A DNA stretch of 64,000 nt from Escherichia coli (GCF_003019035.1 NZ_CP027447.1); one strand, 5' to 3'. Shown: positions 849 through 58,034, numbered from the stretch's first letter. Numbers and translations are program-made. Notes: generated from the sequence alone by a model not told the origin.

Positions 849-1103
849 TTAAAGCTGACCGACAGACTTTCTTAACCTGGTAATATCTCTCTTAGGTGAC
901 TCTCCAAACATCCGCGAATATTCCCGACAGAAATGGGATAAGCTTTCGTAACCGACAACATAGGCTGCAGTGGTGACATCGTAATGTTCATTCAGCATCA
1001 GTCGCCTGACTTCATTGAGGCGTAGCCATTTCTGATACCGGAGTGGACTCATTCCCGCAAGCTGTCTGAAGTGTTGATGGAAAGAGGGGGTGTTCATTTG
1101 CAC
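849..1103 (-). pseudogene. yneL: AraC-family regulator C-terminal HTH fragment (yneL-like)
   Basis: 84-aa ORF carries only the second AraC-type HTH (…SPLRYQKWLRLNEVRRLMLNEHYDVTTAAYVVGYESLSHFCREYSRMFGESP); no full-length frame upstream. Confidence 0.55.
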
Positions 1104-1383: not shown

Positions 1384-2706
1384 TTACTTAATACCGTATT
1401 CTCGGCTTAACCGACGGTGCAACCTTAACACATTGGTTTCAACTGCCGTCACCACGTTCTCCGGAAAATCTGTCGGTAATGAAGTCTTCACATGATCCAG
1501 TGCTGCCGGAATCATTCTGGCAAAGTCACTCAGGATTTCATGCATCTGCACTTGCGGAAATTTCAGCACCTTTGCTGTCGCCAGAAAATGTCGCGGATAA
1601 ATTTTATCGATTGCCGTTTTTTTGCCTTTGGATGCGTTAAGCCCCATTGCCAGTTTGAGATCGCTGATGTGTATTCCTGCGCCACCCAATACCGGAAATG
1701 CTGAAATGATGTCGTAAAATGGCGTGAGTCGATAACTGCCGCCAGCCTGAATAAATACGGAGAAGTTTTTTGCATGGCCATCCGTTGCGCCAATCAACCA
1801 CTGGAAGACCTGGAATTTCATAAAATCATAACGATCTTTCAGCGCCTCGCTGGACCCCATCAAAAAAGCCATGATCCGCGCGATGCCTGGGCCTCCATCT
1901 GATTCATATTTCACCGATGAAGGTAAACCAAATGTCTGACACATATCCTCCTGTGGCAAGCGAAGTAAAACCGTTCGCTCAGTATTCCAACGCCTGTCAA
2001 AACGTTCGACCGCTAACGCGCGCACATTTCCCGCTTTAATGATTTCTGCGTCCGGCACATTCAACCCAAGTTCTTTCGCCAGCAGCAGACAGTAATACTC
2101 ATTATCAACGCTTTGGCTGAGATCGAGCGTCGCATTGGGCTGCCTGATTTCGCCAATCGGTAATTTAATGATGTGCGTCGTCGGCGTTATTCCTTTCGGA
2201 ATGCACCAGTCATTGCCTATTCTGAGCAGTGCTGTCTTCTCCTGTGCGCCAGCAACCGAGATGCGAAAGTCATTTTCTTCTCTAATCATGCCTAGCGGGA
2301 TATCTGCTTTATAAGCCGTTAATACTTCTTCAAGTCTGGCTTCAGTAAGCTTTTCCCATGCCATTATCGGACGCGTTACGGTTTCGTCTTCGGGTATTAA
2401 CGTCACAGCACCAACGCTGTCTCGCCCTATTTCTGACAATAAATCAAACGGTTGTCTGGATTTAGCATGATAACGTTTAACGATCCGGTCACGTACAATC
2501 GGGCTATCGGGTAGCAGGTTATCGAAGAAGTTAAATACAGCATCAGAGGTGATATTCCCCCTCTGCAATGGCAGCGAAAGTGATAACGGTCTGGCATAAC
2601 GGTTGGCTAACCACTCCGGTGCATACTTAAAGGTGTGCGCGCCGTTGGCTAACTTCGTTAACTCGCCTACCCGCTGGTTGTTCATCCAGGTGACAAGTTT
2701 AGGCAT
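1384..2706 (-). CDS. hipA: HipA serine/threonine kinase toxin (440 aa from MPKLVTWMNNQRVGE)
   Basis: Full-length match to HipA; the 459-aa track ORF is an upstream extension overlapping hipB; true ATG overlaps the hipB stop by 1 nt. Confidence 0.95.
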   Translation of the reverse strand: MPKLVTWMNNQRVGELTKLANGAHTFKYAPEWLANRYARPLSLSLPLQRGNITSDAVFNFFDNLLPDSPIVRDRIVKRYHAKSRQPFDLLSEIGRDSVGAVTLIPEDETVTRPIMAWEKLTEARLEEVLTAYKADIPLGMIREENDFRISVAGAQEKTALLRIGNDWCIPKGITPTTHIIKLPIGEIRQPNATLDLSQSVDNEYYCLLLAKELGLNVPDAEIIKAGNVRALAVERFDRRWNTERTVLLRLPQEDMCQTFGLPSSVKYESDGGPGIARIMAFLMGSSEALKDRYDFMKFQVFQWLIGATDGHAKNFSVFIQAGGSYRLTPFYDIISAFPVLGGAGIHISDLKLAMGLNASKGKKTAIDKIYPRHFLATAKVLKFPQVQMHEILSDFARMIPAALDHVKTSLPTDFPENVVTAVETNVLRLHRRLSREYGIK

Positions 2707-2972
2707 TACCACTCCAGATCTTGCTGTTCTGTTGATTCTGGCGAGGCATTTTTCGTGTCGCATAGCGTCATTGAGAGTTCAAGCGACTGTAAAATCTTAA
2801 AAAATGTCGTGAGCGTGGTATTGTCAGGGTTGTTTTCGAAATTGGAAATTGTCGCCTGCTTAATACCGATTTTTTTCGCCAGCTCGCTCTGCGTCCAGCC
2901 ATTTTGCTGACGAACCAGTTTCATTGCATTCGCTAATTGCGTTGGGTTATAGATCTTCTGAAAGCTCATCAT
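2706..2972 (-). CDS. hipB: HipB antitoxin, Xre-type HTH repressor (88 aa from MMSFQK)
   Basis: Sequence recognised as HipB; position immediately upstream of and overlapping hipA. Confidence 0.9.
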   Translation of the reverse strand: MMSFQKIYNPTQLANAMKLVRQQNGWTQSELAKKIGIKQATISNFENNPDNTTLTTFFKILQSLELSMTLCDTKNASPESTEQQDLEW

Positions 2973-2993
2973 GTCATACGTCCACAGCATATT

Positions 2994-3107
2994 TATCCGC
3001 TCAAGGGGATATTATCAGTTTTATCCTTTAGTGGGGATAAAGTCAATCAGGAAACACATCTTATCCGCTCTACGGGATAAACACTGTGATATCCGCGATC
3101 GCGGATA
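2994..3107. promoter_or_regulatory. hipBA promoter-operator region with four TATCC-N8-GGATA HipB operators
   Basis: Palindromes read directly at 2994-3011, 3022-3039, 3062-3079 and 3090-3107. Confidence 0.85.
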
Positions 3108-3146
3108 AAAAGGAGGATTTAAAAGTCGTTTGAAGTCGGCAATATT

Positions 3147-3175
3147 AAGCCGCATGCATCTTCGACATGCGGCTT
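3147..3175 (-). terminator. Candidate terminator hairpin downstream of the autotransporter gene
   Basis: 10-bp perfect stem AAGCCGCATG / CATGCGGCTT; trailing U-tract on the minus strand is weak. Confidence 0.35.
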
Positions 3176-3182
3176 ATACGGT

Positions 3183-6100
3183 TTACCAGCTATATTTCAC
3201 ACCCAGCATGCCCTGAGTATCGCTATAGCCTTTATCACCTAGTTGCACACCGACATTCCCCCACAGGCTAAGGTTGTTATTTACTTTCGCCTCAACCCCG
3301 GTACGTACTTCACCGAGATTACGCGCACCATCACGGCTTACGTTTTGACCATTCATCTTCACGGCGTAGACTTTGCTGTTGTTGATCCAGTTCGCTTCAA
3401 TGTAAGGCTGGAACTCACGCTGTTTACCATTGTCACGCTGGTGATGACTGTTCTGGTAGGTTTTCACCCCAAGTCGTGTTTGCACGTTTCCGTCTCCTTC
3501 CGTTTCAATGCGTGTTCCGTCTTTCCGGGTATGGTCAGAATCTTTCACACCCATCCAGGTGATTTGTACCTGTGGCTGGACGTACCAGGTATTCAGCGTC
3601 CCTTCGCTGCCGCTAAATGTTCCCGCTTCAAAGGTATACCCACCCTCAACAGAGGCCGTCACACCGCGAGAATCATAGTCGTCAGCAGAACGGTTATCGG
3701 AACTGACGCTGTTATCAAACCAGTTATACAGCGCCCAGCTGTCAACATAAGCGCCGGTCTTATTCGCATCGTTCTGATACCAGGTCGCGTACAGTCCTGC
3801 GCTGTAACCGCTGATGCGCCCATCCGATTTATAACCCACATGATTACTCTGAGTATTACTGTGCTGATTGGCATAGCCTGCCATCACGCCGAGATGCCAG
3901 CGATCCTGCGCGTTGCTACTCCACTGCGCCAAATCGCCGCCTAGCTGCAATACATAGCGGTTAGCCTGAGTATTTAGCTGACCATCACCGGTCCTGAAAC
4001 GTTCGTGCCCTCCGACATGACGCATCCATATACTGGTTGCCGAATCCTGAACTCGCAGTGAATCTGTATACTGCGGCTCACCCAGACGGTCGTGTAAGCG
4101 ATGGCTAAACAGCGAGTTGGCTGCGGCAATGTTGCTGATATAGCTTCCGGCCTCCGGGCGATAAACTGATGGGCCTTCCGGATCCACAACAGGGGGATTA
4201 TTGATGGGATCGGGTGTATCCGCTGGCGTTACGCCGTCCCATTTACTGGTCAGATACCAGTTTTTCTCGTCATTCCCCTTCCCTTTAGCCAGCGTGTAGA
4301 CGTAAGCCCCAGCTTCGACAGTTCCGGTGGTCAGCGCGAAGTTACCTGCAGAATTACCGCCAACCTCAATGAGTTCAATACCGTTGACCGTTTGTGCACC
4401 GACGCCGCCAATGTTATTAACCCGAACGCGGGTATTGCCCTGCGTATCACCTTTTACGTTCATTTTATCCGTGGGGGAATTATCGCTACCCAGCGTCGCG
4501 TTGAACGTCATCAGGCCATTGTTTCCGGTATAGTTACCGTTAACGGTCAGTACATTCCCCGGTTTCCCCCCTTCGCTGTTCATTTGAACCGTGCCACCAT
4601 TCTCCAGGTTACCGCCGACAGTGGTTTTAGCGACACGCAGTGTCCCCCCAGGCATAACGTTCACATCACCTGCAGTGGTGACATTTCCCGACATCACACC
4701 GCTGTTATGGATATTAATGTGCTGACTTGCCATATTAATGGCAGAGTCGGAACCGAAAGCAATTTCACCACCCACGATATCCGTCGTACCCTGGTACGCC
4801 GCGGAATCGTTGTTAAGAGTCAGGATCCCGGACCCCAGTTTTGTCACACCGCCGCTACCGGTGATACTGTGCGTCATCGCCCAGCTACGCTCAGTGGAGA
4901 TGGTGAGCAGGCCATTATTGATAACGGAAGCATCACCCAGGTTTTTCTGCTCGTTGACGCTGAGCGCGCTGCCTGTATCAATGTTGAATTGCCCCACAAA
5001 GCGGCTATTATCGCCATCCAGCTCTACGTCTGTCCTGGCGGTTGCGCTCACGATACCCTTCCCGCTTATGCTATTACGCAGTTCGCCGGTCACGTTTTTT
5101 AGCGTTAACAGACCGTCATTGGCAATATTTCCTCTGCCTAACCCCTGCGTATTATCGAGGCTGACTTCCGCATTTGGGCTAACGCTGGTTAACGCATTGT
5201 AGCGTGCATTAAGCCCCTCGATAGCCAGCGTTCCCCCTGTAACATTCAGGTTTCCGCCACCTGTCAGTTCACCCTGACTGATCCCACCTTTATTCACCGT
5301 CAGCGACCCTTCTTTGAACAAAACAGTCGAACCCATCTGCCCGGTGAATGTCTCTACCGTCTGCGTCGATCCATTAAGATCGACGATGGCCGCGTTGCTG
5401 ATGTTCAGTTCCCGGGTGTTGCCCAGCGCGCCATCCGCATCGGTACGTAATGTCCCCATCTGAACGTAGGTTGCCCCCTGATAGTCGTTCTGACCGTTGG
5501 AAAGCGAAACCTGTCGCACCGTATTGATTGCCAGATCCCCTTCACCACCGATTTTTGCCGACATATCGGCCGTTGCGCCATAGGCTCCGCCATGTTCGGC
5601 TAATGTCAGCTTTTGCCCACCATGGATGTTCAGCGCTTTCAGCCCATAGTTAACGTACAAACCATCACCTGGTGCGGTCGTGAGGCGGAATCCATAATCA
5701 CCCTCGGCGACCACCGTTCCGTTTTGCGCAATGTGTAACGTTTTGTCCGCTTCCACCTCGTCGCCCTGTAAATCACGTAACGTTAATGAGCCACCCGACC
5801 CAATAACCGTTTGCGCCTTCACCAGTTGAACGCCGACATGGTTATCATCGTGTTCCAGCAAATTGAGCGTCGTCAGAGGGTTATTCGCCATGGGATCATT
5901 CCACGGTTTAGGCACGTCGATAAGCACGTCGCCCGTCCCGTTTACCTGATAGTTACGGCCTTTCCAGGTGTAGTCACCCGCGCCGACAGCCAGCGTATCG
6001 ACGCTGATATATCCCTCCGCAAGCGTCGCAGCAGGTATATCCGTATCGAAAGTGAGCGTACCGCCATTCATGGCTAGTCCACCAATGGATTGCTCTCCCA

Positions 6101-8603
6101 CGTTTACCGATGTGGTATTTTCACTGTCAGACTGAAGCATCGCGTGAGTAAGCGCAGCGGTGTTGTCGCGTTCCAGTGTGAAGGTACTGTCTTTCAGTTG
6201 GACAACACCGGCGAATTCAGTTCCTGTTGCATGGGTAAAGCCAAACATTTTGTCGGAGGATGACAGCTGCACTCGCATCAAGCCATCGCCTTTGAGCGCA
6301 TTGGTCAGCGTGTAATCTCCTGCGCTGTTCGTTGATGCGAGAATGTCGAGCGTACCGGGGCTTGCAATGGTGACTTCACTCGAACCCATGCCCGTTACCC
6401 CATCTGCCGTATGTGACGCAATGGTCAGGAGGCCGTCATTGACCAGCGTTTTACCGCTATAAGTATTCCCTGCATTGAACACCGTATGGCCTGCATCATG
6501 TATCACTTTTCCGTCTTTATCGTCACCCGTAATCAGCATATCGACCTGGTAGCCGGCATCACTGTTATTGGTATGATTAAAGACAAAAACACCTTCGCCA
6601 GAACCAAACTCTACTTTCGTCGCGTTGGCGATAAACCCGGCATCTGCCGCCGCCTCACCGTGAGCAGCACCAATGTTTAGCGTTCCTACAGCAGGTTCAA
6701 AAAGACCTAAGTAAACTTCGCCACCTTCGACATTCAGCGTGCCGTTATTCGTCAGGGTTAACGTACCCGTACCAGACGTCCCTACATTCATATTGAATGT
6801 TTCAAGAAGAGAGTTCTGCCCATCCACCCGCACGTCGCCCTTACTTTTGTCATTCAGAGCTATCTGTGTATCACGCGCTTTAACTATACCTCCGGTGGTA
6901 ATATTCAGTTCACCCGTACCTAATACACCGACCTGTAGCAATTGGGCGTTAGTAGATGACGTTTTTAAATTCCAGAGACTATCCGTTGAAATATTAACTA
7001 TCCCCTTACCGGAGGCATTTCCTCCGATAAATCCATAGCCCGTTGAATTAAGGGTGGCACCATTACTGACATTTACGATGCCGCTACCAAAATTACCGAC
7101 ATTGATACCTACAGTATCGAACGATGATGTCGCATCCATCAGGTTCAGTGTGCCGATACCGCTTGCTTTATCGCCCAAAAAAGTAATATTTTGCGATACG
7201 AACTTACCGCCATCGCTGATATTGAGGTTTCCGACGCCCGCAACACCAATGGTGGTGTAGACATTCTTATTGACCTCCCATATCCCCCCCGTGGTGATGC
7301 TAACCTTCCCGACGCCGGTTTCTCCATAACCGAGTGAACTTCCTCCGTTGCTGACAACAAGCCCCTCATTACTGATATTCATTTCGCCGTGGCCGTCATA
7401 ACCAAGATTAGTTCCGAGATTAGTGATAACGGAGTTCTTATCCTTAACAGTAATGTTGCCTGTGCCTGTTTCTTTCATCCCCGCAGTGATAATTCCCGAA
7501 TCTACTTTGCCTTCACTAGAGACATTAAGTTCACCGTCGCCAGCATCACCGATATAGATATAGCGGAAAGCTTCGCCCGTTCCGAGGAAATTCCAATGCC
7601 CTTTATCGGTCACGTTGACGACACCGTGGGAACCGTCCTGAACGCCCACCAATGAATATTCTTTGTTATTAATCAGTCCATTATTGGAAATATTGACTTT
7701 GCCATTACCGAAATATCCATTATAGAGTCTGCGTACCGTGATGACAGAGTCTTGATCCTGCACATTCAGGGTTCCGATACCGGTGGCATTGCCTCCGATA
7801 ATCGTATTTTCAGCCGTAATTAGCCCACCCTCGCGAATAGTCGCTTCCCCAGTTCCTTGATTACCAATTTGAAATTCAATTGAGGAATCGTTATTTTTTA
7901 TTAGCCACTCACCGCCCTTTTCAACGACAACCTTACCATTACTGTTCGCTTGATATCCTACAGTGGCGACTATTGAACTCGTGACGTAACCCTTATCCGT
8001 AATATTTAATGAGCCCGTACCGTAACTCCCTATTTCGAATAATTCGGTCGTCAGAACCGAGTCCTCTCCCTCAACATTAACCGTCCCGACGCCTCCTGTC
8101 GAAGAACCTATCCTTAAATATCCTCCGTCAACGTGACCCTTCTGTTTAATATTCAGCGTCCCCGTTCCGGATTGACCCACATTTAAAGGCCTTGCATTAT
8201 TTCCGCTATCATACAATCGCCAGGTCCCACCCAAAACATTAACGGTGCCCTCCGAGTCCTCATTAGCGCCAATGACGCTGGTAGTAATAGTGGTTAAGGA
8301 AGCATTACCGCCAGCCAAAATATTAAGCACTCCAGTGCCATACCAGCCAACCAGGTAGGCATCATAAGCAACATCAGTATCAATATTGGTAATCTGACCA
8401 TTATCAACTTCCAGACTCGCACCAGACGCTGAACCGCTTAGTGCCAGCAAAACACCCAGCGTCAATCTACTGAGTTTCGTTGTCAGTCCAGAGGATTTAC
8501 GCAAATTAACCGTCGATGTTTTACCTACCCTGCGAGTTAATTCAGAGCAGGCCTGAAATACCTGTAGAGTGCAATTCCATATCACGCGATAGATTCTATT
8601 CAT
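3183..8603 (-). CDS. AIDA-I-type autotransporter adhesin, 1806 aa, intact (YdeK/YneO-family locus)
   Basis: N-terminal extended signal peptide (MNRIYRVIWN...), long Gly/Thr/Asn-rich beta-helix passenger repeats, C-terminal beta-barrel ending ...LGVKYSW. Confidence 0.85.
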   Translation of the reverse strand: MNRIYRVIWNCTLQVFQACSELTRRVGKTSTVNLRKSSGLTTKLSRLTLGVLLALSGSASGASLEVDNGQITNIDTDVAYDAYLVGWYGTGVLNILAGGNASLTTITTSVIGANEDSEGTVNVLGGTWRLYDSGNNARPLNVGQSGTGTLNIKQKGHVDGGYLRIGSSTGGVGTVNVEGEDSVLTTELFEIGSYGTGSLNITDKGYVTSSIVATVGYQANSNGKVVVEKGGEWLIKNNDSSIEFQIGNQGTGEATIREGGLITAENTIIGGNATGIGTLNVQDQDSVITVRRLYNGYFGNGKVNISNNGLINNKEYSLVGVQDGSHGVVNVTDKGHWNFLGTGEAFRYIYIGDAGDGELNVSSEGKVDSGIITAGMKETGTGNITVKDKNSVITNLGTNLGYDGHGEMNISNEGLVVSNGGSSLGYGETGVGKVSITTGGIWEVNKNVYTTIGVAGVGNLNISDGGKFVSQNITFLGDKASGIGTLNLMDATSSFDTVGINVGNFGSGIVNVSNGATLNSTGYGFIGGNASGKGIVNISTDSLWNLKTSSTNAQLLQVGVLGTGELNITTGGIVKARDTQIALNDKSKGDVRVDGQNSLLETFNMNVGTSGTGTLTLTNNGTLNVEGGEVYLGLFEPAVGTLNIGAAHGEAAADAGFIANATKVEFGSGEGVFVFNHTNNSDAGYQVDMLITGDDKDGKVIHDAGHTVFNAGNTYSGKTLVNDGLLTIASHTADGVTGMGSSEVTIASPGTLDILASTNSAGDYTLTNALKGDGLMRVQLSSSDKMFGFTHATGTEFAGVVQLKDSTFTLERDNTAALTHAMLQSDSENTTSVNVGEQSIGGLAMNGGTLTFDTDIPAATLAEGYISVDTLAVGAGDYTWKGRNYQVNGTGDVLIDVPKPWNDPMANNPLTTLNLLEHDDNHVGVQLVKAQTVIGSGGSLTLRDLQGDEVEADKTLHIAQNGTVVAEGDYGFRLTTAPGDGLYVNYGLKALNIHGGQKLTLAEHGGAYGATADMSAKIGGEGDLAINTVRQVSLSNGQNDYQGATYVQMGTLRTDADGALGNTRELNISNAAIVDLNGSTQTVETFTGQMGSTVLFKEGSLTVNKGGISQGELTGGGNLNVTGGTLAIEGLNARYNALTSVSPNAEVSLDNTQGLGRGNIANDGLLTLKNVTGELRNSISGKGIVSATARTDVELDGDNSRFVGQFNIDTGSALSVNEQKNLGDASVINNGLLTISTERSWAMTHSITGSGGVTKLGSGILTLNNDSAAYQGTTDIVGGEIAFGSDSAINMASQHINIHNSGVMSGNVTTAGDVNVMPGGTLRVAKTTVGGNLENGGTVQMNSEGGKPGNVLTVNGNYTGNNGLMTFNATLGSDNSPTDKMNVKGDTQGNTRVRVNNIGGVGAQTVNGIELIEVGGNSAGNFALTTGTVEAGAYVYTLAKGKGNDEKNWYLTSKWDGVTPADTPDPINNPPVVDPEGPSVYRPEAGSYISNIAAANSLFSHRLHDRLGEPQYTDSLRVQDSATSIWMRHVGGHERFRTGDGQLNTQANRYVLQLGGDLAQWSSNAQDRWHLGVMAGYANQHSNTQSNHVGYKSDGRISGYSAGLYATWYQNDANKTGAYVDSWALYNWFDNSVSSDNRSADDYDSRGVTASVEGGYTFEAGTFSGSEGTLNTWYVQPQVQITWMGVKDSDHTRKDGTRIETEGDGNVQTRLGVKTYQNSHHQRDNGKQREFQPYIEANWINNSKVYAVKMNGQNVSRDGARNLGEVRTGVEAKVNNNLSLWGNVGVQLGDKGYSDTQGMLGVKYSW

Positions 8604-19538: not shown

Positions 19539-19697
19539 GGTTATCTTCAGGCGTGGAAAAGTCGCCCTATTAAACGTGATTACGATCACATTCTCAAGAC
19601 ACTACTTACAAATTACCTACAAGCTTACAACATTAACAGGTGCTGCATGTAGCACCTGTTAATGATAAAGGCACATAGGATGTTGTAACTAATATAG

Positions 19698-37490: not shown

Positions 37491-38390
37491 TTAGCCTCTA
37501 ACCTTTACCGCTTTACGCCACCGCAAGCCAAATACATTGATATACAGCCCGGTCATAATGAGCACCGCACCGAAAAATTGTAGACCCGTTAAGCGTTCAT
37601 CCAACAATAGTGCCGCACTTGCCAGTCCTACTACGGGCACCAGTAACGATAACGGTGCAACCCGCCAGGTTTCATAGCGTCCCAGTAACGTCCCCCAGAT
37701 CCCATAACCAACAATTGTCGCCACAAACGCCAGATACATCAGAGACAAGATGGTGGTCATATCGATAGTAACCAGACTGTGAATCATGGTTGCGGAACCA
37801 TCGAGAATCAGCGAGGCAACAAAGAAGGGAATGATTGGGATTAATGCACTCCAGATTACCAGCGACATCACCGCCGGACGCGTTGCGTGCGACATGATCT
37901 TTTTATTGAAGATGTTGCCACACGCCCAACTAAATGCTGCCGCCAGGGTCAACATAAAGCCGAGCATCGCCACATGCTGACCGTTCAGACTATCTTCGAT
38001 TAACACCAGTACGCCAAAAATCGCTAAGGCGATCCCCGCCAATTGTTTGCCATGCAGTCGCTCACCGAAAGTAAACGCTCCAAGCACGATAGTAAAAAAC
38101 GCCTGTGCCTGTAACACCAGCGAAGCCAGTCCAGCAGGCATACCGAAGTTAATGGCACAAAAAAGAAAAGCAAACTGCGCAAAACTGATGGTTAATCCAT
38201 ACCCCAGCAGCAAATTCAGTGGTACTTTCGGTCGTGCGACAAAAAAGATAGCCGGAAAAGCAACCAGCATAAAGCGCAAACCGGCCAACATCAGCGGTGG
38301 CATGTTATGAAGCCCCACTTTGATGACCACAAAATTTAGCCCCCATACGACCACTACCAGTAGCGCCAACACCCCATCTTTTCGCGACAT
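37491..38390 (-). CDS. eamA: O-acetylserine/cysteine exporter EamA (YdeD), 299 aa from MSRKDG
   Basis: DMT-superfamily 10-TM transporter; the track ORF is a 7-codon upstream extension. Confidence 0.9.
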   Translation of the reverse strand: MSRKDGVLALLVVVVWGLNFVVIKVGLHNMPPLMLAGLRFMLVAFPAIFFVARPKVPLNLLLGYGLTISFAQFAFLFCAINFGMPAGLASLVLQAQAFFTIVLGAFTFGERLHGKQLAGIALAIFGVLVLIEDSLNGQHVAMLGFMLTLAAAFSWACGNIFNKKIMSHATRPAVMSLVIWSALIPIIPFFVASLILDGSATMIHSLVTIDMTTILSLMYLAFVATIVGYGIWGTLLGRYETWRVAPLSLLVPVVGLASAALLLDERLTGLQFFGAVLIMTGLYINVFGLRWRKAVKVRG

Positions 38391-39898: not shown

Positions 39899-39994
39899 AT
39901 GCTGGGTAATATGAATGTTTTTATGGCCGTACTGGGAATAATTTTATTTTCTGGGTTTCTGGCCGCGTATTTCAGCCACAAATGGGATGACTAA
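39899..39994 (+). CDS. mgtS: Small membrane protein MgtS (YneM), 31 aa
   Basis: Read by hand below the track cutoff: MLGNMNVFMAVLGIILFSGFLAAYFSHKWDD with stop at 39992-39994; Shine-Dalgarno GGAGG upstream. Confidence 0.85.
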   Translation: MLGNMNVFMAVLGIILFSGFLAAYFSHKWDD

Positions 39995-40021
39995 TGAACG
40001 GAGATAATCCCTCACCTAACC

Positions 40022-40060
40022 GGCCCCTTGTTACAGTTGTGTACAAGGGGCCTGATTTTT
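40022..40060 (+). terminator. Rho-independent terminator of mgtS
   Basis: 10-bp perfect stem GGCCCCTTGT / ACAAGGGGCC followed by TGATTTTTA. Confidence 0.7.
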
Positions 40061-40067
40061 ATGACGG

Positions 40068-40172
40068 CGAAAAAAAACCGCCAGTAAACCGGCGGTGAAT
40101 GCTTGCATGGATAGATTTGTGTTTTGCTTTTACGCTAACAGGCATTTTCCTGCACTGATAACGGATCGTTGA
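40068..40172 (-). ncRNA. mgrR: Putative PhoP-dependent sRNA MgrR (boundaries approximate)
   Basis: Minus-strand promoter with PhoP box at 40202-40218 and minus-strand intrinsic terminator at 40068-40096 (CCGCC stem plus 7-8 U); about 100 nt with no ORF; position between mgtS and dgcZ. Confidence 0.45.
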
Positions 40173-40201
40173 CACAGTAGCATCAGTTTTCTCAATGAAT
40201 G

Positions 40202-50403: not shown

Positions 50404-50994
50404 ATGTCTCGAATTTTTGCTTACTGTCGGATATCAACGCTGGATCAGACCATCGAAAATCAACGCCGGGAAATCGAAAGTGCAGGTTTTAAAATCAAAC
50501 CTCAGCAAATAATCGAAGAACACATTAGCGGCTCAGCAGCAACCAGTGAGCGTCCTGGTTTTAACCGGTTGCTTGCTCGCCTGAAATGTGGTGATCAATT
50601 GATTGTGACAAAACTGGATCGCCTTGGTTGTAATGCAATGGATATCAGGAAAACAGTGGAACAACTGACCGAAACAGGTATCAGAGTGCATTGCTTAGCA
50701 TTGGGGGGCATTGACCTGACCAGTCCAACAGGAAAAATGATGATGCACGTAATTTCAGCAGTCGCTGAATTTGAACGAGACCTTTTACTTGAACGCACTC
50801 ATTCCGGGATAGTAAGAGCCCGCGGCGCAGGGAAACGTTTTGGTCGACCACCTGTGTTAAATGAAGAACAGAAACAGGTGGTATTCGAACGAATTAAGTC
50901 AGGTGTAAGTATAAGTGCCATTGCCCGGGAATTCAAAACCTCGCGGCAAACCATTTTAAGAGCCAAAGCAAAACTTCAGACACCTGATATATAA
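50404..50994 (+). CDS. pin: Serine recombinase, Pin/Gin/Hin-family DNA invertase (196 aa)
   Basis: N-terminal resolvase catalytic domain (…[10 protein letters not shown]…) and C-terminal HTH; convergent with the tail-fibre genes. Confidence 0.9.
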
Positions 50995-51091
50995 AAAATA
51001 ATCTCGGTGTGAGATGCTTTACGTCTTCCAAGCCCCCTTCCTTGCCGTAAATGGAAAGATACATCTAATTATAGAATTTATATGTTTTACC

Positions 51092-51208
51092 CTACGGCAG
51101 TGCTGGCCATTCAATATCCTGTGCAGTTGACGTATCAACACGGTTCAGCAATACCCGATACTTTTTCCATGCTTCCAGCAACGAGGTTTCTTCCTCCGTT
51201 GCATATAC
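51092..51208 (-). pseudogene. tfa: 3' remnant of a tail-fibre assembly gene (tfa), about 38 codons
   Basis: Frame encodes …[38 protein letters not shown], matching the conserved Tfa C-terminus; homology stops abruptly upstream. Confidence 0.6.
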
Positions 51209-51221
51209 AGCCCACCTTTTT

Positions 51222-51515
51222 TCACCCACGATTAACCAACAGCCAGACCAGCAGACACGCCACCACCGGCACAGCAAAATCCATCAGGCTTGCCACATCC
51301 CACGCGCGCGGATCAAAACCGCCCCACCACGGCATATTCATTCGCTTGCCATGCCCGAACATTTCAATCCAGCGATATTCTGCCTGGGTATGTTCACGCG
51401 CAATGAAGAACGTACAACCGGCTATCGCTCCGTAAGCCCAGTTTCCGGTAAAAAGACCAACCAGTATCTGCGCAGCCACAGCACAAAGTGCATGAAGTAA
51501 GGGGCTTATATCCAT
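51222..51515 (-). CDS. Hypothetical small membrane protein (97 aa, two predicted TM segments)
   Basis: Hydrophobic stretches [28 protein letters not shown] and [15 protein letters not shown]; no lipobox; lies where the tfa body is expected. Confidence 0.5.
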
Positions 51516-51527
51516 TATTTCCTCCTT

Positions 51528-51806
51528 TCAGCTCCATTCCCGAAGCGGTGTTTCCAGCTCCACGACATAATCAGAGAATACAGAAACATCAAACAAGTCA
51601 TCAAGAATGCGAATGTTGACAAAATAACCGTTATTCCGGATACAGACAGGTTCTCCCTCTTCAGTTACCCCTGTTTCTGTGTAGGTGAAACCAATTTCAT
51701 CGACTAACAGTTTATTCTGGAGGTCTTCATCTTCCTCCCAGTCAAGAGATGACAGGAAGGATTTAAACTCTCTGTTACCAGGAAATTTCAAAGTTAAATC
51801 TTTCAT
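51528..51806 (-). CDS. Hypothetical small acidic protein (92 aa); possible fibre chaperone or moron product
   Basis: ORF immediately downstream of, and 4-nt overlapping, stf; Asp/Glu-rich; no resemblance to Tfa that I can see. Confidence 0.5.
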   Translation of the reverse strand: MKDLTLKFPGNREFKSFLSSLDWEEDEDLQNKLLVDEIGFTYTETGVTEEGEPVCIRNNGYFVNIRILDDLFDVSVFSDYVVELETPLREWS

Positions 51807-53833
51807 ACTGCCTCCTTGATTTGCCTGTCATTTAATTCTTTAAACCAGACTCTGAAATTTCTGATGTGTCCAAACAAATGACGCGTTCCTGCTGCGGTCT
51901 GCCCACCAAACCGGTACGATGTTGCTGTAACTCCAAATATTTTACCATTAAGGTTTGTTGTATAATTACCATTGCATATTGCATTTACTGATAAATCAGA
52001 TTTAGCTCTCACACCCACAATGAACCTTTCTCCATCTGAGGAAATTTGTGGCTGAACCATTCCTACGTTGGCGCTTATCTTTCCTGTTGAAACAAACCCC
52101 AGCGATAAATAATTATCATCAATACTGTGCCCTCCAACATCAAATATCCTTGGCGCAACATTGGGCGGTGTACTCCAGTTCCTCCTTACTTCGCACAATA
52201 CTGTAAAAGGCCGTGTTGACAGGTTATTCGCCGAGGGGATAGTAACCACATCACTTGCGCGTGTTGTTGGCATTGTAGTTACAATAAATGACGATGCCGT
52301 ATTGCCCAGTTCAATTTGCGGCGTCGTCATGGTTAATGTTGAGTCATCATAGAATGGCTCATTACTTATTTTATTTGTCATATAAAAAGCACAGTTAACG
52401 GTATCAATGTCCGTATTAGCTGTATAAGTGGCCTCATAGTAGGTCCACTCGCCCTGTTGTTCAGCTTTGGCTGTTATAAGGGATGTATTACCGCTTACTG
52501 TTGCGATCCGGGTATCCAGATCAAGATAAGAGTCAGCAGAGAATGTATCTGTTCCACCAATAATAACTGAAACTCTTAACCTGCATCGTGCTTTAGCGCC
52601 TTTAACCCGGCACGAAAAAGTGAAACATTCACCACTTGCCAGCGGGAATCTGTCTGCTGCAACCACACCATGCACAGTATAGCCACCTGTTGTTCCCACT
52701 ATACTTTCCGTGGGTGTCACCGTGGCATAATTGAACCCCTGTTTATCAGTGCCAAATGTTTTATTCAGTGCGGAATGAACAGTCCATGAGTCTGGTTTAT
52801 TTGAGTTCCTCAGATAATTTGTCCTCTGTCCTTCAATCAATAAGCCATCGCGCTCAAATCGCGGTTCGTCAACTTCAGCAAGCTTGAGTTGGCCGGACTT
52901 ATTAATATACGTTGCTGTTGAAGCACGTTTAAACTTAACAATCTTGTCGCCTGGCATTGTTATTTCATCGTCACCAATAACAATCTTTTTATAAGATGGC
53001 GAAAAACCCGTAATCATATCCAGCGAATCGTTAAACGGTATCCACACATCAGGCAGCGGCGGCACTATATTCGCATAGGGCTCTGCAGTCACTTCCGCTG
53101 CGGCTTCTGCGCGGTCTGCCGCCTTTTCAGCTCGTGTCGCTGCCGACAGAGCCTCATCCTTTTTCTGCCCGGCCTTTGTTGCGTCTGCTGCGGCCTCCCG
53201 CGCTTTTGTGGTGGCGACTCCGGCATTTTCAGCGGCTGACTCTGCATTACGGCGGGAAGCCTCTTCACTGTCTGCGGAGGCTTCTTCTGACGCACGGGCA
53301 TTTGTCTCTGAACGTTCTGCCGCTGTTGCTGCGTTTTGTGCGGCTGTTTTTGAAGAAGCTGCCGCTTTCGCGCTGTTACCTGCATTCGTCTCTGATGTTT
53401 TCGCCGCGTTCCTGGACGATGCCGCTGCTGTTTCTGATTTCTTTGCTGCCGCTGCGCTCTGAGAGGCGGCTTCAGCGTTGCGTGCTGCTTCTTCCACCAT
53501 TGCCTCAAAACGACGCAATGCCTCCGGCATGACATCATCTTCCGTCATGGCACCGAGAAAATCATTCAGCGTACCAGGTCTGGAACCTTCATAGACGGTA
53601 ATGGTTCCGGCATGTGAAGGCGGAAAACCTTCAACCAGCAGGGTGACGCTGTACTGGCCATACTCGACATCCATGCTGTAACGCCCGGCTTCATCCGGAT
53701 TTTCAGAGGCTACCGTGTTCACCAGTACCGTGGTGCTGTTACGCTTTGCCTTCAGTTGAATAGTGCAGTTCTGTATTGGTTTTCCCGCACCATCTTTCAG
53801 CACACCTGAGATTTTTACTGCTGCCATATCCAC
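51803..53833 (-). CDS. stf: Side tail fibre protein Stf (676 aa) with lambda-type N-terminus and lectin-like C-terminal domain
   Basis: N-terminus MDMAAVKISGVLKDGAGKPIQNCTIQLKAKRN… matches lambda Stf; Ala-rich coiled segment; C-terminus …HLFGHIRNFRVWFKELNDRQIKEAV resembles the terminal strand of Laminin-G/concanavalin-like domains. Confidence 0.85.
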   Translation of the reverse strand: MDMAAVKISGVLKDGAGKPIQNCTIQLKAKRNSTTVLVNTVASENPDEAGRYSMDVEYGQYSVTLLVEGFPPSHAGTITVYEGSRPGTLNDFLGAMTEDDVMPEALRRFEAMVEEAARNAEAASQSAAAAKKSETAAASSRNAAKTSETNAGNSAKAAASSKTAAQNAATAAERSETNARASEEASADSEEASRRNAESAAENAGVATTKAREAAADATKAGQKKDEALSAATRAEKAADRAEAAAEVTAEPYANIVPPLPDVWIPFNDSLDMITGFSPSYKKIVIGDDEITMPGDKIVKFKRASTATYINKSGQLKLAEVDEPRFERDGLLIEGQRTNYLRNSNKPDSWTVHSALNKTFGTDKQGFNYATVTPTESIVGTTGGYTVHGVVAADRFPLASGECFTFSCRVKGAKARCRLRVSVIIGGTDTFSADSYLDLDTRIATVSGNTSLITAKAEQQGEWTYYEATYTANTDIDTVNCAFYMTNKISNEPFYDDSTLTMTTPQIELGNTASSFIVTTMPTTRASDVVTIPSANNLSTRPFTVLCEVRRNWSTPPNVAPRIFDVGGHSIDDNYLSLGFVSTGKISANVGMVQPQISSDGERFIVGVRAKSDLSVNAICNGNYTTNLNGKIFGVTATSYRFGGQTAAGTRHLFGHIRNFRVWFKELNDRQIKEAV

Positions 53834-53891
53834 TCCACAAAAAAGCCCGCCTGAACCGGCGGGCTGTCATAACACTGTGTTACCTGGCTAA

Positions 53892-54491
53892 TCAGAATTT
53901 ATAACCGACACCCACGATGAAACCGTCAGTGCGCCAGTCACCACTGCCGGAACCTTCATAAGCAAGGTCAATGGCCACGGATTCGGTCGGGTTAAACTGC
54001 ACGCCAGCCCCCCACGCCAGAGACGTGTTGCTGTGGCGACCGTCATCACTTCCGGTCAGCACATCGTGCGTTTTCCCCTTGTTGTCAGTTACGCGGAGAT
54101 AATCCCCGGAGAAGGTCGACACACGGCTGTAAGCCATACCCGCCATCGCATACGCGCTGAACCATTCATTCACGCGCACAGACGGCCCCGCCATCACGCT
54201 GAACCAGCGGTTACGCACGGAATCTTCATGCCAGCGGGTATCGCTGTAATGCGTTTTTTGCTCATCTTTGGCATTGGCATAACTGAATGACGTCACCAGC
54301 CCCAGCGTGTCCGTAAACTCATAACGGTATTTCACGTTAATCCCGTTCAGATCATCGCTGCCGGGAACGTTCGTCGAGGCATGAAGATACCCCGCGCTCA
54401 GCGTGGACTGATGTTCAGACGCCCATGCAGGCGCACCGGATACGGCCAGACAAATGGCTACGGACAAAATGGCGGCATAAAGTTTACGCAT
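53892..54491 (-). CDS. lom: Lom outer-membrane protein (Ail/PagC/Lom family)
   Basis: Signal peptide plus 8-strand beta-barrel family sequence ending …GFIVGVGYKF. Confidence 0.9.
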   Translation of the reverse strand: MRKLYAAILSVAICLAVSGAPAWASEHQSTLSAGYLHASTNVPGSDDLNGINVKYRYEFTDTLGLVTSFSYANAKDEQKTHYSDTRWHEDSVRNRWFSVMAGPSVRVNEWFSAYAMAGMAYSRVSTFSGDYLRVTDNKGKTHDVLTGSDDGRHSNTSLAWGAGVQFNPTESVAIDLAYEGSGSGDWRTDGFIVGVGYKF

Positions 54492-54557
54492 AATTACCTC
54501 TCGCTTTTCTGCAATAAAAAAGGCGTCATTTCTGACGCCCGTTATGGGTTATAAAAT

Positions 54558-57500
54558 TCAGCTGATACTGATGCCTGCGGTGGCTTTCTTCATCACCACA
54601 ACCAGCAAATCGCTGATACTTGCTGTGGGATACCAGTCATTTACCAGCCATGCTGACACCGAAAACTCCAGCGTCATGTGGCCGTGACCAGCTGGCATAT
54701 CAATAACGCCACTGTAAATCAGCGTATTATCCAGCGCGGTACGGTTATAAATTTCAGCACCGTTTTTCCGCACTATCAGACGGCATGAGGAGTAAATATC
54801 AGTATGCTCTCTCTCATGTTTAGCACCGCTGAATGCCACCGCCGGAATAACAATCTGCCGGTCAAACGGCTGATCGTCATAAATCCTGACGGTAATGGTC
54901 CCTGATGGCCACCGCTCCGGTGCCCGGGAGTCCCGCGGGAAAGCCTTACCCACTGTTTTGACAATATCGCCTTCAATCTGGTTGGCTGACAGTTTCCCTT
55001 TAATCTGACAGTTCTCATTTATCGTAACGTTGTTGAGCGTCCCGGCGTTCGCATTCACACTGCCACTGATATCCGCATTTTTCGCCGTCAGTCGCCCGTC
55101 CGGTGTCAGGGAAAATGCCGGAGGATTACCGCCGCTGGTAATGGTGGGAGCCGTCAGATATTTCAGGAACACGTCATTCATGAATATCTGATCGCCCTGA
55201 CCAACAAACATCGGCTTTGTGTTGCCATTCGCAGGATTAATCATCGCAATCCTGTCTGCCGCCAGCAGCACCTGACTCTGCATGCCGTCGGGGGTGTTCT
55301 CAATACCGGCACCGATACCCGCAATATAAAGGCGTCCGTCCTGCATCTGCTGCAGCTTCACTGCCCACATGCTGTTCAGGTTATTATTTGTATCAACCTG
55401 AACCTTCTGTATCTGCTGGATCGCTGCACTCTGGTCTTCCAGTTTCTTATTGACGGTCTGTGTTATTTCATTGCTGACATCCGTTATGGACGTCCTGATT
55501 TCAGTCAGGTCAGGCGCAAGCTGACCGTTATCAATCTGCGTCCACAGCTCCTGAGCCAGATGGGTTTTCCCTATCTCGCCTTTGAAAAAATCCAGATAGC
55601 CGGATGCATCATCACTCGGCTGACCAACAGCCTCCACGAATGCCGATTTGCCAACGGTGTTCACACTGCGAACATAAAAATAATAATCATGGCCCGGTTT
55701 GATATTGATACTGGCGGCTATCCAGTACAGCGCCGTACCAAGATAACGCGCGCTGGTTTCAACCTGCCTGATATCAGCAATCCGTTTTTCCGAGAACCAG
55801 AACTCAAACTGTACCGTCGGATCATAAACCGCAAGATGCGGCGTGGCGGTTATCTGAAAATAGCCCGGCGTCAGCTCAATCCGCGACGGCGCTGCCGGTG
55901 CGGCAATCCGGAACGATACCGACGCCGGATCGCCCTGCTGCCCCCACGCATTTACTGCCCGGACTGTCAGCCTGTAGTTCCCCAGAGCCAGTTGTGTGAA
56001 GCGGTAAGTGGTTTCCGTCGTCCGGGCCGTGCTGACCAGCCGCTCACTGCCGTCATCCGCTGCCACGGTCAGGCGAAGCAGGAAGCTCACGCCCTTCACC
56101 ACCTTCGGTGTGTCCCATCGCGCCAGCACCTGATATTCCCCGCTGTCTGCAGTGACTTCTGCGGTCAGGTGCTGCACTGCTGGCGGCGTGACACCATTCA
56201 CCGTGCCGCTCTGGTCACCGTCAAAGTGCGCCCCGTTATCCACGATGGCTTCTTTCTCCGGTACATGCTGCACGGCAGTGATGGCATACGTACCGTCATC
56301 GTTCTCACGGATACTCACACAGCGGAACAGACGCTGGCGCAGCGTCGGCAGCTTCAGCCCCCATACGCTGTATTCAGCAACACCGTCAGGAACACGGCTC
56401 ACTTTTACCTTCACGCCGTCGGTGACGGACTGAACCTCCACGCTGACCGGATTGCCACTTCCGTCAACCAGGCTTATCAGCGTGGTACCGGAGGATGGCA
56501 GCGTGATTTCACGGTCGAGCGTCAGCGTCCGGGTCTGGCTGTTCACCGCCAGCACGCGACCACCGATGCTGATACCGGCATAGTCATCATCACAGATTTC
56601 AATGACATCGCCCGGTACATGGCGAAGCCCTTCTGCGCCCACGCTGAAGTCCACGGTCTGCGTTTCCAGCAGTTCCGTTTTAATCAGCCACAGCCCGGCG
56701 CGGTGCGCCTGCCCCCGGCTGGTACAGCCAAAAGCATCCATCTTCGTGACGTTACGACCGTAACGGGCAATGGCCTGCGTGTCCTCCACAAGCTCTGTTG
56801 CCGTTTCCCAGCCGTTATCCGGGTCAATCCAGTTCACTTCAACGGCATTATGGCGGTCCTTCAGGGCGCTGAAGCTGTAGCGGAACGGCGCGCCATCATC
56901 CGGCATCACCACATTACTGCGGTTATAGGTCCACACCTTATCCGACGGTCGGTCCTGCACGAACGTCAGCGTCTGCCCGTTCCATACCGGCATACAGCGC
57001 ATCGCCGAGCAGAAATCACTGAGCACATCCCACGCCTTGCGCTGTGTGGTCAGGTACGCATTACAGGTAATGCGCGGCTCCGTGCCGCCAAAGCCGTCCG
57101 GCACCGACTGGTCGCAGTACTGGCCGATGACATACAGCGCCCATTTATCCACATCCGCCGCACCAAGACGTTTCCCCATGCCGTAGCGCGGATGGGTCAG
57201 CATATCCCACAGACACCAGGCCATGTTGTTGCTGTATGCTGGCTTAAACGTTCCGTCCCAGATACCGCTGTATTGCCGCGTCAGCGGGTTATAGTTCGAC
57301 GGCACCTGCAGAATACGCCCGCGCAGATGATAATTACGGCTCACCTGCTGGCTGCCGAACTGCTCCGAGTCCACCTGCACGCCGACCAGTGCCGTGTTCG
57401 GGTAGCACTGTTTCACATCGATGATTTCGGTGTATGACGACCAGAGCGTTTTGTTCTGCAGCTGGTCTGTAGTGCTGTCCGGCGTCATCCTGCGCATCCG

Positions 57501-58034
57501 GATACTGAACGGGCGCGGCGGCAGGTTACCCACCACCACCGAGGCCAGATACTGTGAGGTGGTTTTGCCTTTAATGGTGATGTCTTTTTCCGTCACCCAG
57601 CCACCGTTACGTTGTATCTGAACCAGCAGGCGGACTTCCGACGGATTCCGGTCACCCTTTGAGGTGGTTTCCACCAGTGCCTGCACACCAAAGGTAAAGC
57701 GCAGACGGTCGATATTTGCAGACGTGATGGTGCGGGTTATCGGCGTGTCGTATTTCACTTCCGTACCCAGCACCGTCTCGGAGCCGGAGGATTCAAAACC
57801 CTCCGGCGGTGTCTGCTCCTGCTCACCGGCCCGGAACACCACCGTGACACCGGCGATGTTGGTATTCCCTTCGCTATCCAGCACCGGCGTACTGTTCAGC
57901 AGCACGCTTTTTAATCCATCCACCGGACCTTCAATCGGCCCTTCGCTGATGGCATCGATCACACTCAGTAACTGCGTGGATTTCAGGTTGTCCTTCGCTT
58001 CGCGCGGGGTATGCCCCTTACTGCTGCCTTTACC
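54558..58034 (-). CDS. J: Tail tip host-specificity protein J (start at [15 protein letters not shown])
   Basis: N-terminal ~850 aa match lambda J as I recall it; C-terminal ~300 aa diverge; the track ORF extends 16 codons upstream. Confidence 0.9.

What the first reader, a model, noticed from the sequence alone, without database searches (positions are those of the whole stretch)
2706..3180. hipBA module with four-operator array insulated from the upstream autotransporter
Four evenly spaced TATCC-N8-GGATA palindromes (2994-3107) precede hipB, and the hipB stop overlaps the hipA start (ATGA). A 10-bp-stem hairpin (3147-3175) sits between the autotransporter stop and the operators and may shield the tightly autoregulated TA promoter from read-through. 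This is a known system, flagged because HipA alleles affect persistence.
Basis: partly seen in the sequence, partly recalled or inferred. Interest (0 to 1): 0.3.

Follow-up and report, generated by a model that had tools for sequence, protein, structure and literature searches.

The report
Ordinary E. coli hipBA toxin-antitoxin locus
This is the well-studied E. coli hipBA toxin-antitoxin operon with its four known repressor-binding sites and a wild-type toxin gene; the neighbouring hairpin belongs to the upstream adhesin gene and does not look like an efficient transcription stop.

Summary
The window is E. coli chromosome, 100% identical to strain SCU-301. On the minus strand lie an intact 1806-aa ECSE_1600-family autotransporter (8603..3183), a stem-loop (3176..3146), four exact TATCC-N8-GGATA HipB operators (O4 3107..3090 to O1 3011..2994), hipB (2972..2706) and hipA (2706..1384).

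- Operator gaps are 10/22/10 bp, not even.
- The hipB/hipA overlap is TAATG (1 nt), not ATGA.
- The stem is 11 bp.

HipA is 98% identical to K-12. It is wild type at G22, D291, P86, D88 and the catalytic residues.

The hipBA reading is textbook. The "insulator hairpin" reading is weak. The hairpin has no U-tract and scores far below terminator thresholds. It occurs only with the autotransporter and is absent from about 1000 genomes that keep the same hipBA promoter.

Comparison added detail:
- The 28-bp operator period is conserved from Escherichia to Vibrio.
- A -35 TTGACT abuts O2, and the inferred -10 starts in O2's last TA.
- E. coli is dimorphic for the O2-O3 gap: 22 bp in 2727 genomes, the K-12-type 21 bp in 2058.
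- A canonical terminator next to O4 in some strains and in Pseudocitrobacter is deleted here.

Already known; low interest.

The parts
1384..2706 (-). hipA, Ser/Thr kinase toxin, 440 aa (stop codon 1384-1386)
   Evidence: Pfam Couple_hipA and HipA_C domains. 430/440 identical to K-12 HipA. PDB 3dnt/2wiu/3tpd at E about 1e-292. RefSeq annotation. G22, P86, D88, S150, K181, D291, D309 and D332 are all wild type.
2706..2972 (-). hipB, Xre-type HTH antitoxin and repressor, 88 aa (stop codon 2706-2708)
   Evidence: NCBIfam equivalog NF007271 at 183.6 bits against a cut-off of 79. Pfam HTH_3. 85/88 identical to K-12 HipB, with the C-terminal W88 kept. PDB 2wiu_B and 5k98_B.
2704..2708 (-). TAATG junction: hipB stop TAA and hipA start ATG share base 2706; GGAG Shine-Dalgarno 9 nt upstream of the hipA ATG
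   Evidence: Read directly from the sequence. A 1-bp overlap is reported for E. coli in PMC4150777.
2994..3011 (.). Operator O1 (TATCCCCTTGAGCGGATA on the hipB-sense strand), nearest hipB; covers the inferred transcription start
   Evidence: The K-12 O1O2 oligonucleotide in PMC3376134 matches this site and O2, with 3 substitutions outside the half-sites.
3022..3039 (.). Operator O2; fills the spacer between the inferred -35 and -10
3062..3079 (.). Operator O3
3090..3107 (.). Operator O4, a fully palindromic 18-mer TATCCGCGATCGCGGATA
   Evidence: I8.
3041..3046 (-). Inferred -35 hexamer TTGACT, 1 nt upstream of O2
   Evidence: Sequence. TTGAC[A/T/G] lies 0-1 nt upstream of an operator in 12 of 22 hipBA loci from several genera. 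Inferred only; no start-site data could be retrieved.
3018..3023 (-). Inferred -10 hexamer TAAAAC, 17-nt spacer; its TA is the last TA of O2
   Evidence: TAAAAC/G is conserved in all Escherichia and Pseudocitrobacter loci. The GATAAT/TATAAT in the O2-O1 gap is not conserved. Inferred.
3108..3145 (-). Unstructured interval between hairpin and O4. It lacks the 12-bp segment that in K-12 carries a degenerate small hairpin and the IHF-like CATCAACGCCTTA. Homology with autotransporter-less genomes ends at about 3124.
   Evidence: Haplotype counts.
3146..3176 (-). Stem-loop TAAGCCGCATG-N9-CATGCGGCTTA, 6 nt after the autotransporter stop; no U-tract
   Evidence: Single copy per genome, and always at the autotransporter 3' end.
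3183..8603 (-). ECSE_1600-family (AIDA-I-type) autotransporter, 1806 aa and intact here; ortholog of the K-12 yneO pseudogene
   Evidence: NCBIfam NF011422 at 4110 bits. Pfam ESPR, Pertactin, AC_1 and Autotransporter domains. Annotated as frameshifted in BW25113.

Best explanation
The region is the canonical chromosomal hipBA type II toxin-antitoxin operon of E. coli.

Shown elsewhere for K-12:
- HipB dimers, alone or carrying HipA, bind cooperatively to the four TATCC-N8-GGATA operators and repress the operon.
- HipB neutralises the HipA kinase.
- Free HipB is degraded by Lon.

Inferred here:
- The promoter is -35 TTGACT (3046-3041), a 17-nt spacer, then -10 TAAAAC (3023-3018).
- O2 therefore occupies the spacer and O1 covers the start site, so bound HipB occludes RNA polymerase.
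- O3 and O4 lie upstream and add cooperativity.
- hipA translation is coupled to hipB through the TAATG junction.

The HipA allele is a natural wild-type variant, not a high-persistence allele.

The 11-bp stem-loop at 3176-3146 is the 3'-end hairpin of the upstream autotransporter mRNA. It lies in the terminal part of the autotransporter segment, which ends at about 3124, not in the hipBA cassette. Because it lacks a U-tract, it most likely acts as a weak or factor-assisted stop, or as a barrier to 3' exonucleases. It is not an efficient intrinsic terminator that insulates hipBA. This part is inferred and not tested.
For: Identity:
- The window is 100% identical to the SCU-301 chromosome, where hipA, hipB and the autotransporter are annotated at these positions.
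- HipA is 98% and HipB 97% identical to K-12.
- Domains and equivalog models match, and the proteins match solved HipA/HipB structures.

Operators:
- Four exact sites against 0.05 expected.
- Consensus, four-site cooperativity and the O1O2 sequence are in PMC3376134 and PMC3920265.
- All 22 loci compared (the window plus 21 hipA loci from Escherichia to Vibrio) carry 3-5 such sites. Of 56 start-to-start intervals, 45 are 28 bp. Half-sites are near-invariant and the spacer centre is free.

Promoter:
- TTGAC[A/T/G] lies 0-1 nt upstream of an operator in 12 of 22 loci.

Hairpin:
- Perfect 11-bp stem, about -18 kcal/mol.
- Sits 6 nt after the stop codon.
- Present in 4277 of 5426 complete genomes, single copy, always under or next to the autotransporter.
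- The paired stem bases are identical in all 11 autotransporter-bearing E. coli loci read, apart from the outer two pairs lost to a deletion in GPEC1354. The loop has two forms.
- Absent where the autotransporter is absent and tam is the divergent neighbour.
Against: - No transcript 5' or 3' end data for hipB or yneO could be retrieved. Promoter placement and hairpin function therefore rest on sequence and comparison only.
- The inferred -10 TAAAAC lacks the usual final T. The simple promoter scan does not report it.
- K-12 has a perfect TATAAT in the O2-O1 gap that could serve as an alternative -10.
- The invariant stem gives no covariation, so selection on the RNA structure is not demonstrated.
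- Hairpins without U-tracts can still terminate in vivo with NusA/NusG or Rho, so some insulation is not excluded.
Confidence: 0.9

Rival explanations
1. The hairpin is an effective transcriptional insulator. It stops autotransporter transcription before it reaches the hipBA operators and so protects HipB autoregulation.
For: - The autotransporter and hipBA are co-directional, and the hairpin lies between them, 6 nt after the stop codon.
- The stem is strong and invariant.
- Another small structure occupies the hairpin-to-O4 interval in other haplotypes. A canonical terminator, GGCGC-ATCA-GCGCC-T6, is there in 198 genomes and in Pseudocitrobacter. This shows that terminators do occur at this boundary.
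Against: - No U-tract; the tail is AAUAUUGCC. The scan finds 0 terminators and the score is -40 to -49.
- About 1000 genomes keep identical operators and promoter without the hairpin.
- The canonical terminator next to O4 has decayed in 1682 genomes and is deleted in 517, including this one. This argues against strong selection for insulation at that spot.
Confidence: 0.2
2. The palindrome has no RNA function. It is a junction relic at the end of the autotransporter-lsr segment. It matters only as a DNA secondary-structure hotspot that promotes local deletions.
For: - It lies within about 25 bp of the point where homology with autotransporter-less genomes ends, at about 3124.
- Three independent deletions abut or flank it. 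The 12-bp loss here, a 27-bp loss in strain 405 and an internal autotransporter deletion ending at 3174/3175 in GPEC1354.
- No covariation is available to show selection on pairing.
Against: - Its position 6 nt after a stop codon is typical of mRNA 3' hairpins.
- The paired stem bases are unchanged in all autotransporter-bearing loci read, except the outer pairs lost to the GPEC1354 deletion. The loop and both flanks vary.
- Strong gene-end hairpins are enriched in the window. There are 7 distinct sites, and the raw tally is 14 against 0.6 in shuffles.
Confidence: 0.2
3. The 11-bp inverted repeat is a DNA binding site for a dimeric regulator acting on hipBA or on the autotransporter.
For: The repeat has perfect dyad symmetry. 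It lies 100 bp upstream of the inferred -35.
Against: - The arms are longer and more GC-rich than typical operator half-sites.
- No second copy exists in any genome.
- hipBA loci without it keep the same promoter.
- No literature support was found.
Confidence: 0.03

Closest known systems
E. coli K-12 hipBA operon (hipB b1508 / hipA b1507) with operators O1-O4
   Same: - Same genes at 97-98% protein identity, and the same 1-nt TAATG overlap.
- All eight TATCC/GGATA half-sites are the same.
- The same upstream autotransporter and hairpin stem.

   Different: - The O2-O3 gap is 22 bp here against 21 bp in K-12 (PMC4150777). The inferred -35/-10 spacer is therefore 17 rather than 16.
- A 12-bp segment with the IHF-like site and a degenerate small hairpin upstream of O4 is missing here.
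- There are 10 HipA and 3 HipB substitutions, none at known persistence positions.
- The autotransporter is intact here and a pseudogene in K-12.
Shewanella oneidensis HipBA (PDB 4PU3-4PU8)
   Same: HipB-HipA module with four palindromic operators upstream and autoregulation (PMC4150777). The HipA fold family is the same (E = 7e-30).
   Different: - The operator is GTGTA-N6-TACAC, equally spaced by 34 bp, and one lies inside hipB.
- The genes are separated by 3 bp.
- No cooperativity was reported.
Canonical Rho-independent terminator
   Same: GC-rich stem-loop immediately downstream of a stop codon.
   Different: There is no U-tract, so it fails the scan and the score. A true example sits next to O4 in strain 12867 and in Pseudocitrobacter.

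Membership tests
HipBA type II toxin-antitoxin system (E. coli HipA/HipB orthologs) | HipA kinase with an N-terminal Couple_hipA domain and a C-terminal HipA_C kinase domain | tested here: met
   PF13657 at 95.7 bits and PF07804 at 176.4 bits. 98% identical to K-12 HipA. Matches PDB HipA chains at E about 1e-292.
HipBA type II toxin-antitoxin system (E. coli HipA/HipB orthologs) | Catalytic and autophosphorylation residues retained (S150, K181, D309, D332; positions taken from established HipA structural work) | tested here: met
   All four are present.
HipBA type II toxin-antitoxin system (E. coli HipA/HipB orthologs) | Xre-type HTH antitoxin HipB encoded immediately upstream, ending in the conserved C-terminal Trp | tested here: met
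   NF007271 equivalog at 183.6 bits against a cut-off of 79. W88 is present. Its conservation and role are described in PMC3376134.
HipBA type II toxin-antitoxin system (E. coli HipA/HipB orthologs) | hipB and hipA overlap by 1 bp | tested here: met
   TAATG at 2708-2704. PMC4150777.
HipBA type II toxin-antitoxin system (E. coli HipA/HipB orthologs) | Four TATCC-N8-GGATA operators in the promoter region | tested here: met
   Four exact matches against 0.05 expected.
HipBA type II toxin-antitoxin system (E. coli HipA/HipB orthologs) | Operator gaps of 10, 21 and 10 bp, as described for K-12 | tested here: not met
   The gaps here are 10, 22 and 10 bp. This is a common natural variant: 22 bp in 2727 complete genomes and 21 bp in 2058. 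It does not affect membership.
HipBA type II toxin-antitoxin system (E. coli HipA/HipB orthologs) | HipA toxicity, neutralisation by HipB, and repression of the promoter by HipB | not testable with these tools
   Shown for K-12 in the literature and inferred here from 97-98% identity.
High-persistence hipA alleles (hipA7 G22S + D291A; clinical P86L, D88N) | Substitution at G22, D291, P86 or D88 | tested here: not met
   All four positions are wild type. G22S and D291A are named in PMC3376134. P86L and D88N are recalled from Schumacher et al. 2015, which could not be opened.
Intrinsic (Rho-independent) terminator | Stable GC-rich stem-loop | tested here: met
   11 perfect pairs, -17 to -18 kcal/mol.
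Intrinsic (Rho-independent) terminator | U-rich tract directly 3' of the stem | tested here: not met
   The tail is AAUAUUGCC. The scan finds 0 sites and the score is -40 to -49. As a positive control, the scan flags the terminator in strain 12867.
Intrinsic (Rho-independent) terminator | Measured termination or a mapped RNA 3' end | not testable with these tools
   No hipB or yneO entries in the Term-seq supplements that were held.
REP/BIME-type repeated extragenic palindromes | Many dispersed copies per genome | tested here: not met
   Median 1 and maximum 2 places per genome in a sensitive blastn search.
IHF binding site upstream of hip (WATCAANNNNTTR) | Match to the consensus between the hairpin and O4 | tested here: not met
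   K-12 has CATCAACGCCTTA, matching 12 of 13 positions. The window has no match with 1 mismatch or fewer in 2990-3185. The consensus is weak: 15 matches against about 7 expected in 6.8 kb.

The most novel reading that the evidence does not exclude
Natural variation in the hipBA control region is functional and contributes to strain-to-strain differences in basal hipBA expression and persister frequency.

Two kinds of variation are involved:
- The 1-bp dimorphism in the O2-O3 gap. It changes the inferred -35/-10 spacer between 17 and 16 nt, and it shifts the phasing of the O3O4 pair relative to O1O2.
- Four haplotypes between the autotransporter hairpin and O4. These are a canonical terminator, a decayed terminator with an IHF-like site, a short palindrome, and the deletion seen here.

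The K-12 arrangement used for all structural work would then be only one of several regulatory states.
Probability: 0.12. Interest if true: 0.35.

Novelty: already known. Interest (0 to 1): 0.1.

Why it matters
hipBA is the founding persistence locus, so confirming a wild-type HipA and an intact four-operator array tells a reader that this strain carries no known high-persistence allele. The only new material is descriptive population detail. The reference K-12 operator spacing is one of two common forms, and the sequence just upstream of O4 is an indel hotspot where an ancestral terminator has decayed or been lost. Nothing here challenges current understanding.

Tried and rejected
- **Primary papers.** Black et al. 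1994, Schumacher et al. 2009 and 2015, and Thomason et al. 2015 are not held. The mapped hipB start site could not be cited, and the promoter is inferred.
- **Term-seq supplements.** Searches for hipB, hipA and yneO gave no entries, or no files were held.
- **Rfam.** A scan of the whole window found nothing in or near the finding. The only hit is STnc560/MgrR at 39988-40201. No tRNAs were found.
- **REP-like repeat idea.** Rejected because the hairpin is single-copy.
- **IHF site.** Absent in this strain, and the consensus is too degenerate to weigh.
- **Covariation test of the hairpin.** Not possible. The stem is invariant in E. coli, and the other Escherichia species retrieved lack the autotransporter next to hipBA.
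- **Promoter scan.** The tool does not report the inferred promoter because it requires T at -10 position 6.
- **Terminator scan.** The tool missed the Pseudocitrobacter terminator, probably because its stem extension consumes the T-run. My own score, with the formula recalled from d'Aubenton-Carafa et al. 1990 and ViennaRNA energies, was used instead and is approximate.

Full report
**What is there.** The window is E. coli chromosome. Positions 2600-3400 are 100% identical to strain SCU-301 (NZ_CP051751), and 5266 of 5426 complete E. coli genomes match at least part of that stretch. RefSeq annotates the following, all on the window's minus strand:
- an ECSE_1600-family autotransporter, 8603..3183
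- hipB, 2972..2706
- hipA, 2706..1384
- an AraC-type pseudogene fragment
- a fimA-like gene

Domain and family searches agree:
- HipA has Couple_hipA and HipA_C domains.
- HipB is an HTH_3 protein that passes the HipB equivalog model, 183.6 bits against a cut-off of 79.
- The 1806-aa protein is a full-length ESPR/pertactin/autochaperone/beta-barrel autotransporter.
- HipA and HipB match the solved E. coli structures at E about 1e-292 and 1e-53.

**Checking the observation.** The four TATCC-N8-GGATA sites are exact and sit at the stated coordinates. They are the only four in 64 kb, against 0.05 expected by chance. Their start-to-start distances are 28, 40 and 28 bp, giving gaps of 10, 22 and 10 bp, so they are paired rather than evenly spaced.

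The hipB stop and hipA start form TAATG and share only base 2706. This is not ATGA, and it is the 1-bp overlap described for E. coli (PMC4150777). The true hipB start is the annotated MMSFQ at 2972, not the longer ORF from 2990.

The inverted repeat is real and slightly larger than stated. Its arms are 3146-3156 and 3166-3176, with 11 perfect pairs and a 9-nt loop. It lies 6 nt after the autotransporter stop codon and 38 nt before O4.

**The hipBA module.** The literature establishes several points for K-12 (PMC3376134, PMC3920265, PMC8262856):
- HipB binds cooperatively to four operators of this consensus, with HipA as co-repressor.
- HipB is degraded by Lon through its unstructured C-terminal 16 residues.
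- W88 is conserved.
- hipA7 is G22S plus D291A.

HipA here differs from K-12 at ten positions: S35N, H112R, A242T, T343A, R382K, E385Q, N405H, S424T, G431R and S439I. Nine of these states are shared with other Escherichia or Pseudocitrobacter loci, so they are lineage polymorphisms. Only N405H is unique in my small sample. G22, D291, P86, D88, S150, K181, D309 and D332 are unchanged. HipB differs at S9N, A73T and N85D and keeps W88. This is a wild-type module, not a high-persistence allele.

**Comparative anatomy of the operator array.** I retrieved 21 hipA loci from one genome per species (Escherichia, Pseudocitrobacter, Enterobacter, Serratia, Pantoea, Erwinia, Vibrio, Grimontia, Enterovibrio), making 22 loci with the window.
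- All 22 loci have 3-5 operators of the same consensus upstream of hipB.
- Of 56 neighbouring intervals, 45 are exactly 28 bp.
- The 39/40-bp central interval is confined to Escherichia and Pseudocitrobacter.
- Half-sites carry about 2 bits per position, while the centre of the N8 spacer carries about 0.

Even spacing is therefore the ancestral state. The Escherichia array has an extra 11-12 bp, roughly one helical turn, in the central gap.

In 12 of the 22 loci a TTGAC[A/T/G] hexamer lies 0-1 nt upstream of an operator, usually the second from hipB. That operator's terminal TA begins a TAnnnn hexamer. For the window I infer:
- -35 TTGACT at 3046-3041
- a 17-nt spacer filled by O2
- -10 TAAAAC at 3023-3018
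- a start site near 3011, inside O1

This is inference. The papers with the mapped start site were not available.

**Differences from the K-12 reference.**
- K-12's operator gaps are 10, 21 and 10 bp (PMC4150777; confirmed in BW25113). The window has 22 bp in the centre, from one extra T between TTGACT and O2.
- Exact-word searches show both forms are common. The 22-bp gap is in 303 + 2424 genomes and the 21-bp gap in 2058.
- The 22-bp form is shared with other Escherichia species and Pseudocitrobacter, so it is probably ancestral.

**The hairpin.** As RNA on the autotransporter sense strand it folds at about -17 to -18 kcal/mol. The 91-nt context has z = -3.4. The stem is followed by AAUAUUGCC. 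The terminator scan finds nothing in 2500-3500. A d'Aubenton-Carafa-type score, with the formula recalled from memory and so approximate, is -40 to -49.

The element is single-copy, which excludes a REP-type repeat. It occurs in 4277 of 5426 genomes, always at the autotransporter's 3' end. The paired stem bases are identical in all 11 autotransporter-bearing loci I read, apart from the outer pairs lost to a deletion in GPEC1354. The loop has two forms. Covariation therefore cannot be assessed.

In roughly 1000 genomes without the autotransporter-lsr segment, homology to the window stops at about 3124. There tam is the divergent neighbour of hipB, and the four operators and promoter are unchanged. 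The hairpin belongs to the autotransporter segment rather than to hipBA, and hipBA works in many strains without it.

**The interval between hairpin and O4.** This stretch is an indel hotspot with four main haplotypes:
- The window type has no predicted structure. It occurs in 517 genomes.
- The K-12 type carries 12 extra bp, with a degenerate GGCG/CGCC hairpin and the IHF-like CATCAACGCCTTA. It occurs in 1682 genomes.
- A type with a canonical terminator, GGCGC-ATCA-GCGCC-TTTTTT, occurs in 198 genomes. It scores +20 and is flagged by the scan.
- A type with the palindrome GGCTTTAAAGCC occurs in 1362 genomes.

Pseudocitrobacter has the canonical terminator at the same position, ending a small co-directional upstream gene. 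The terminator therefore looks ancestral to this boundary. In most E. coli it has decayed or been deleted.

That pattern fits either of two readings. Selection for insulation may be weak, or the large hairpin may have made the small terminator redundant. In this strain no U-tract terminator remains between the autotransporter and hipBA.

**Verdict.** The finding is a correct recognition of a textbook system with small descriptive errors. Its one speculative element, the insulating hairpin, is not supported by sequence criteria and remains untested. The novel content is limited to population-level description of regulatory-region polymorphism. Whether that polymorphism has any phenotype is unknown.

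Noticed in passing
window 3040-3061; The O2-O3 gap is dimorphic in E. coli. It is 22 bp in 2727 complete genomes, including this one, and 21 bp (the K-12 type used in all published biochemistry) in 2058. The extra T lies between the inferred -35 and O2, so it changes the inferred -35/-10 spacer from 16 to 17.
   Followed up: yes
window 3108-3145; L002, L032, L031, L010, L011: The interval between the hairpin and O4 has four haplotypes. A canonical terminator, GGCGC-ATCA-GCGCC-T6, is shared with Pseudocitrobacter and present in 198 E. coli genomes. It is decayed in K-12-type strains (1682 genomes), where it overlaps the IHF-like site, and deleted in this strain's type (517 genomes).
   Followed up: yes
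L004 (E. coli O157:H7 strain 4276), locus about 3040-3120: A deletion runs from the middle of O3 to about codon 70 of hipA. This O157:H7 genome therefore has no hipB and an N-terminally truncated hipA, while O4 and the hairpin remain.
   Followed up: partly
L035 (strain 405) and L005 (strain GPEC1354): In strain 405 a 27-bp deletion brings the hairpin to 17 nt from O4, and hipA is annotated only as an N-terminal-domain protein. In GPEC1354 an internal autotransporter deletion ends at the outer edge of the hairpin (window 3174/3175). This suggests palindrome-associated deletion.
   Followed up: partly
window 3183-8603: The ECSE_1600-family autotransporter is an intact 1806-aa ORF here. It is annotated as a frameshifted pseudogene in K-12 BW25113, and as frameshifted or truncated in 8 of the 13 autotransporter-bearing genomes inspected.
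   Followed up: partly
L008 (JARKOR010000214.1): A contig labelled 'Candidatus Nanosynbacter sp.' MAG carries a K-12-type hipBA, operators, hairpin and autotransporter 3' end at 98% identity. It is almost certainly E. coli contamination or misbinning.
   Followed up: no
window 39988-40201 (-): Rfam STnc560 (Hfq-binding sRNA) hit at 282 bits, which I recall, without checking, to be the MgrR family. It lies on the strand opposite the annotated small ORFs mgtS and mgtT and overlaps mgtT's coordinates.
   Followed up: no
window 19631-19664: A perfect palindrome with 14-bp arms, CATTAACAGGTGCT-N6-AGCACCTGTTAATG, lies about 70 nt after the uxaB stop. It also has no T-run. It is the longest perfect hairpin in the window.
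   Followed up: no
window about 31300-37500: A block of GntR regulator, PTS IIB/IIC/IIA, carbohydrate porin and 6-phospho-beta-glucosidase lies between marB and eamA. It looks like a strain-variable sugar-utilisation island. I did not compare it with K-12.
   Followed up: no
window about 50500-64000: A lambdoid prophage tail region in which seven consecutive tail genes are annotated as frameshifted. It is inserted next to a truncated ydfJ. This is either a decaying prophage or homopolymer sequencing errors in the source assembly.
   Followed up: no
window 849-1103 (-): An 84-aa AraC-type HTH C-terminal fragment lies just downstream of hipA. It is annotated as a pseudogene missing its N-terminus.
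   Followed up: no
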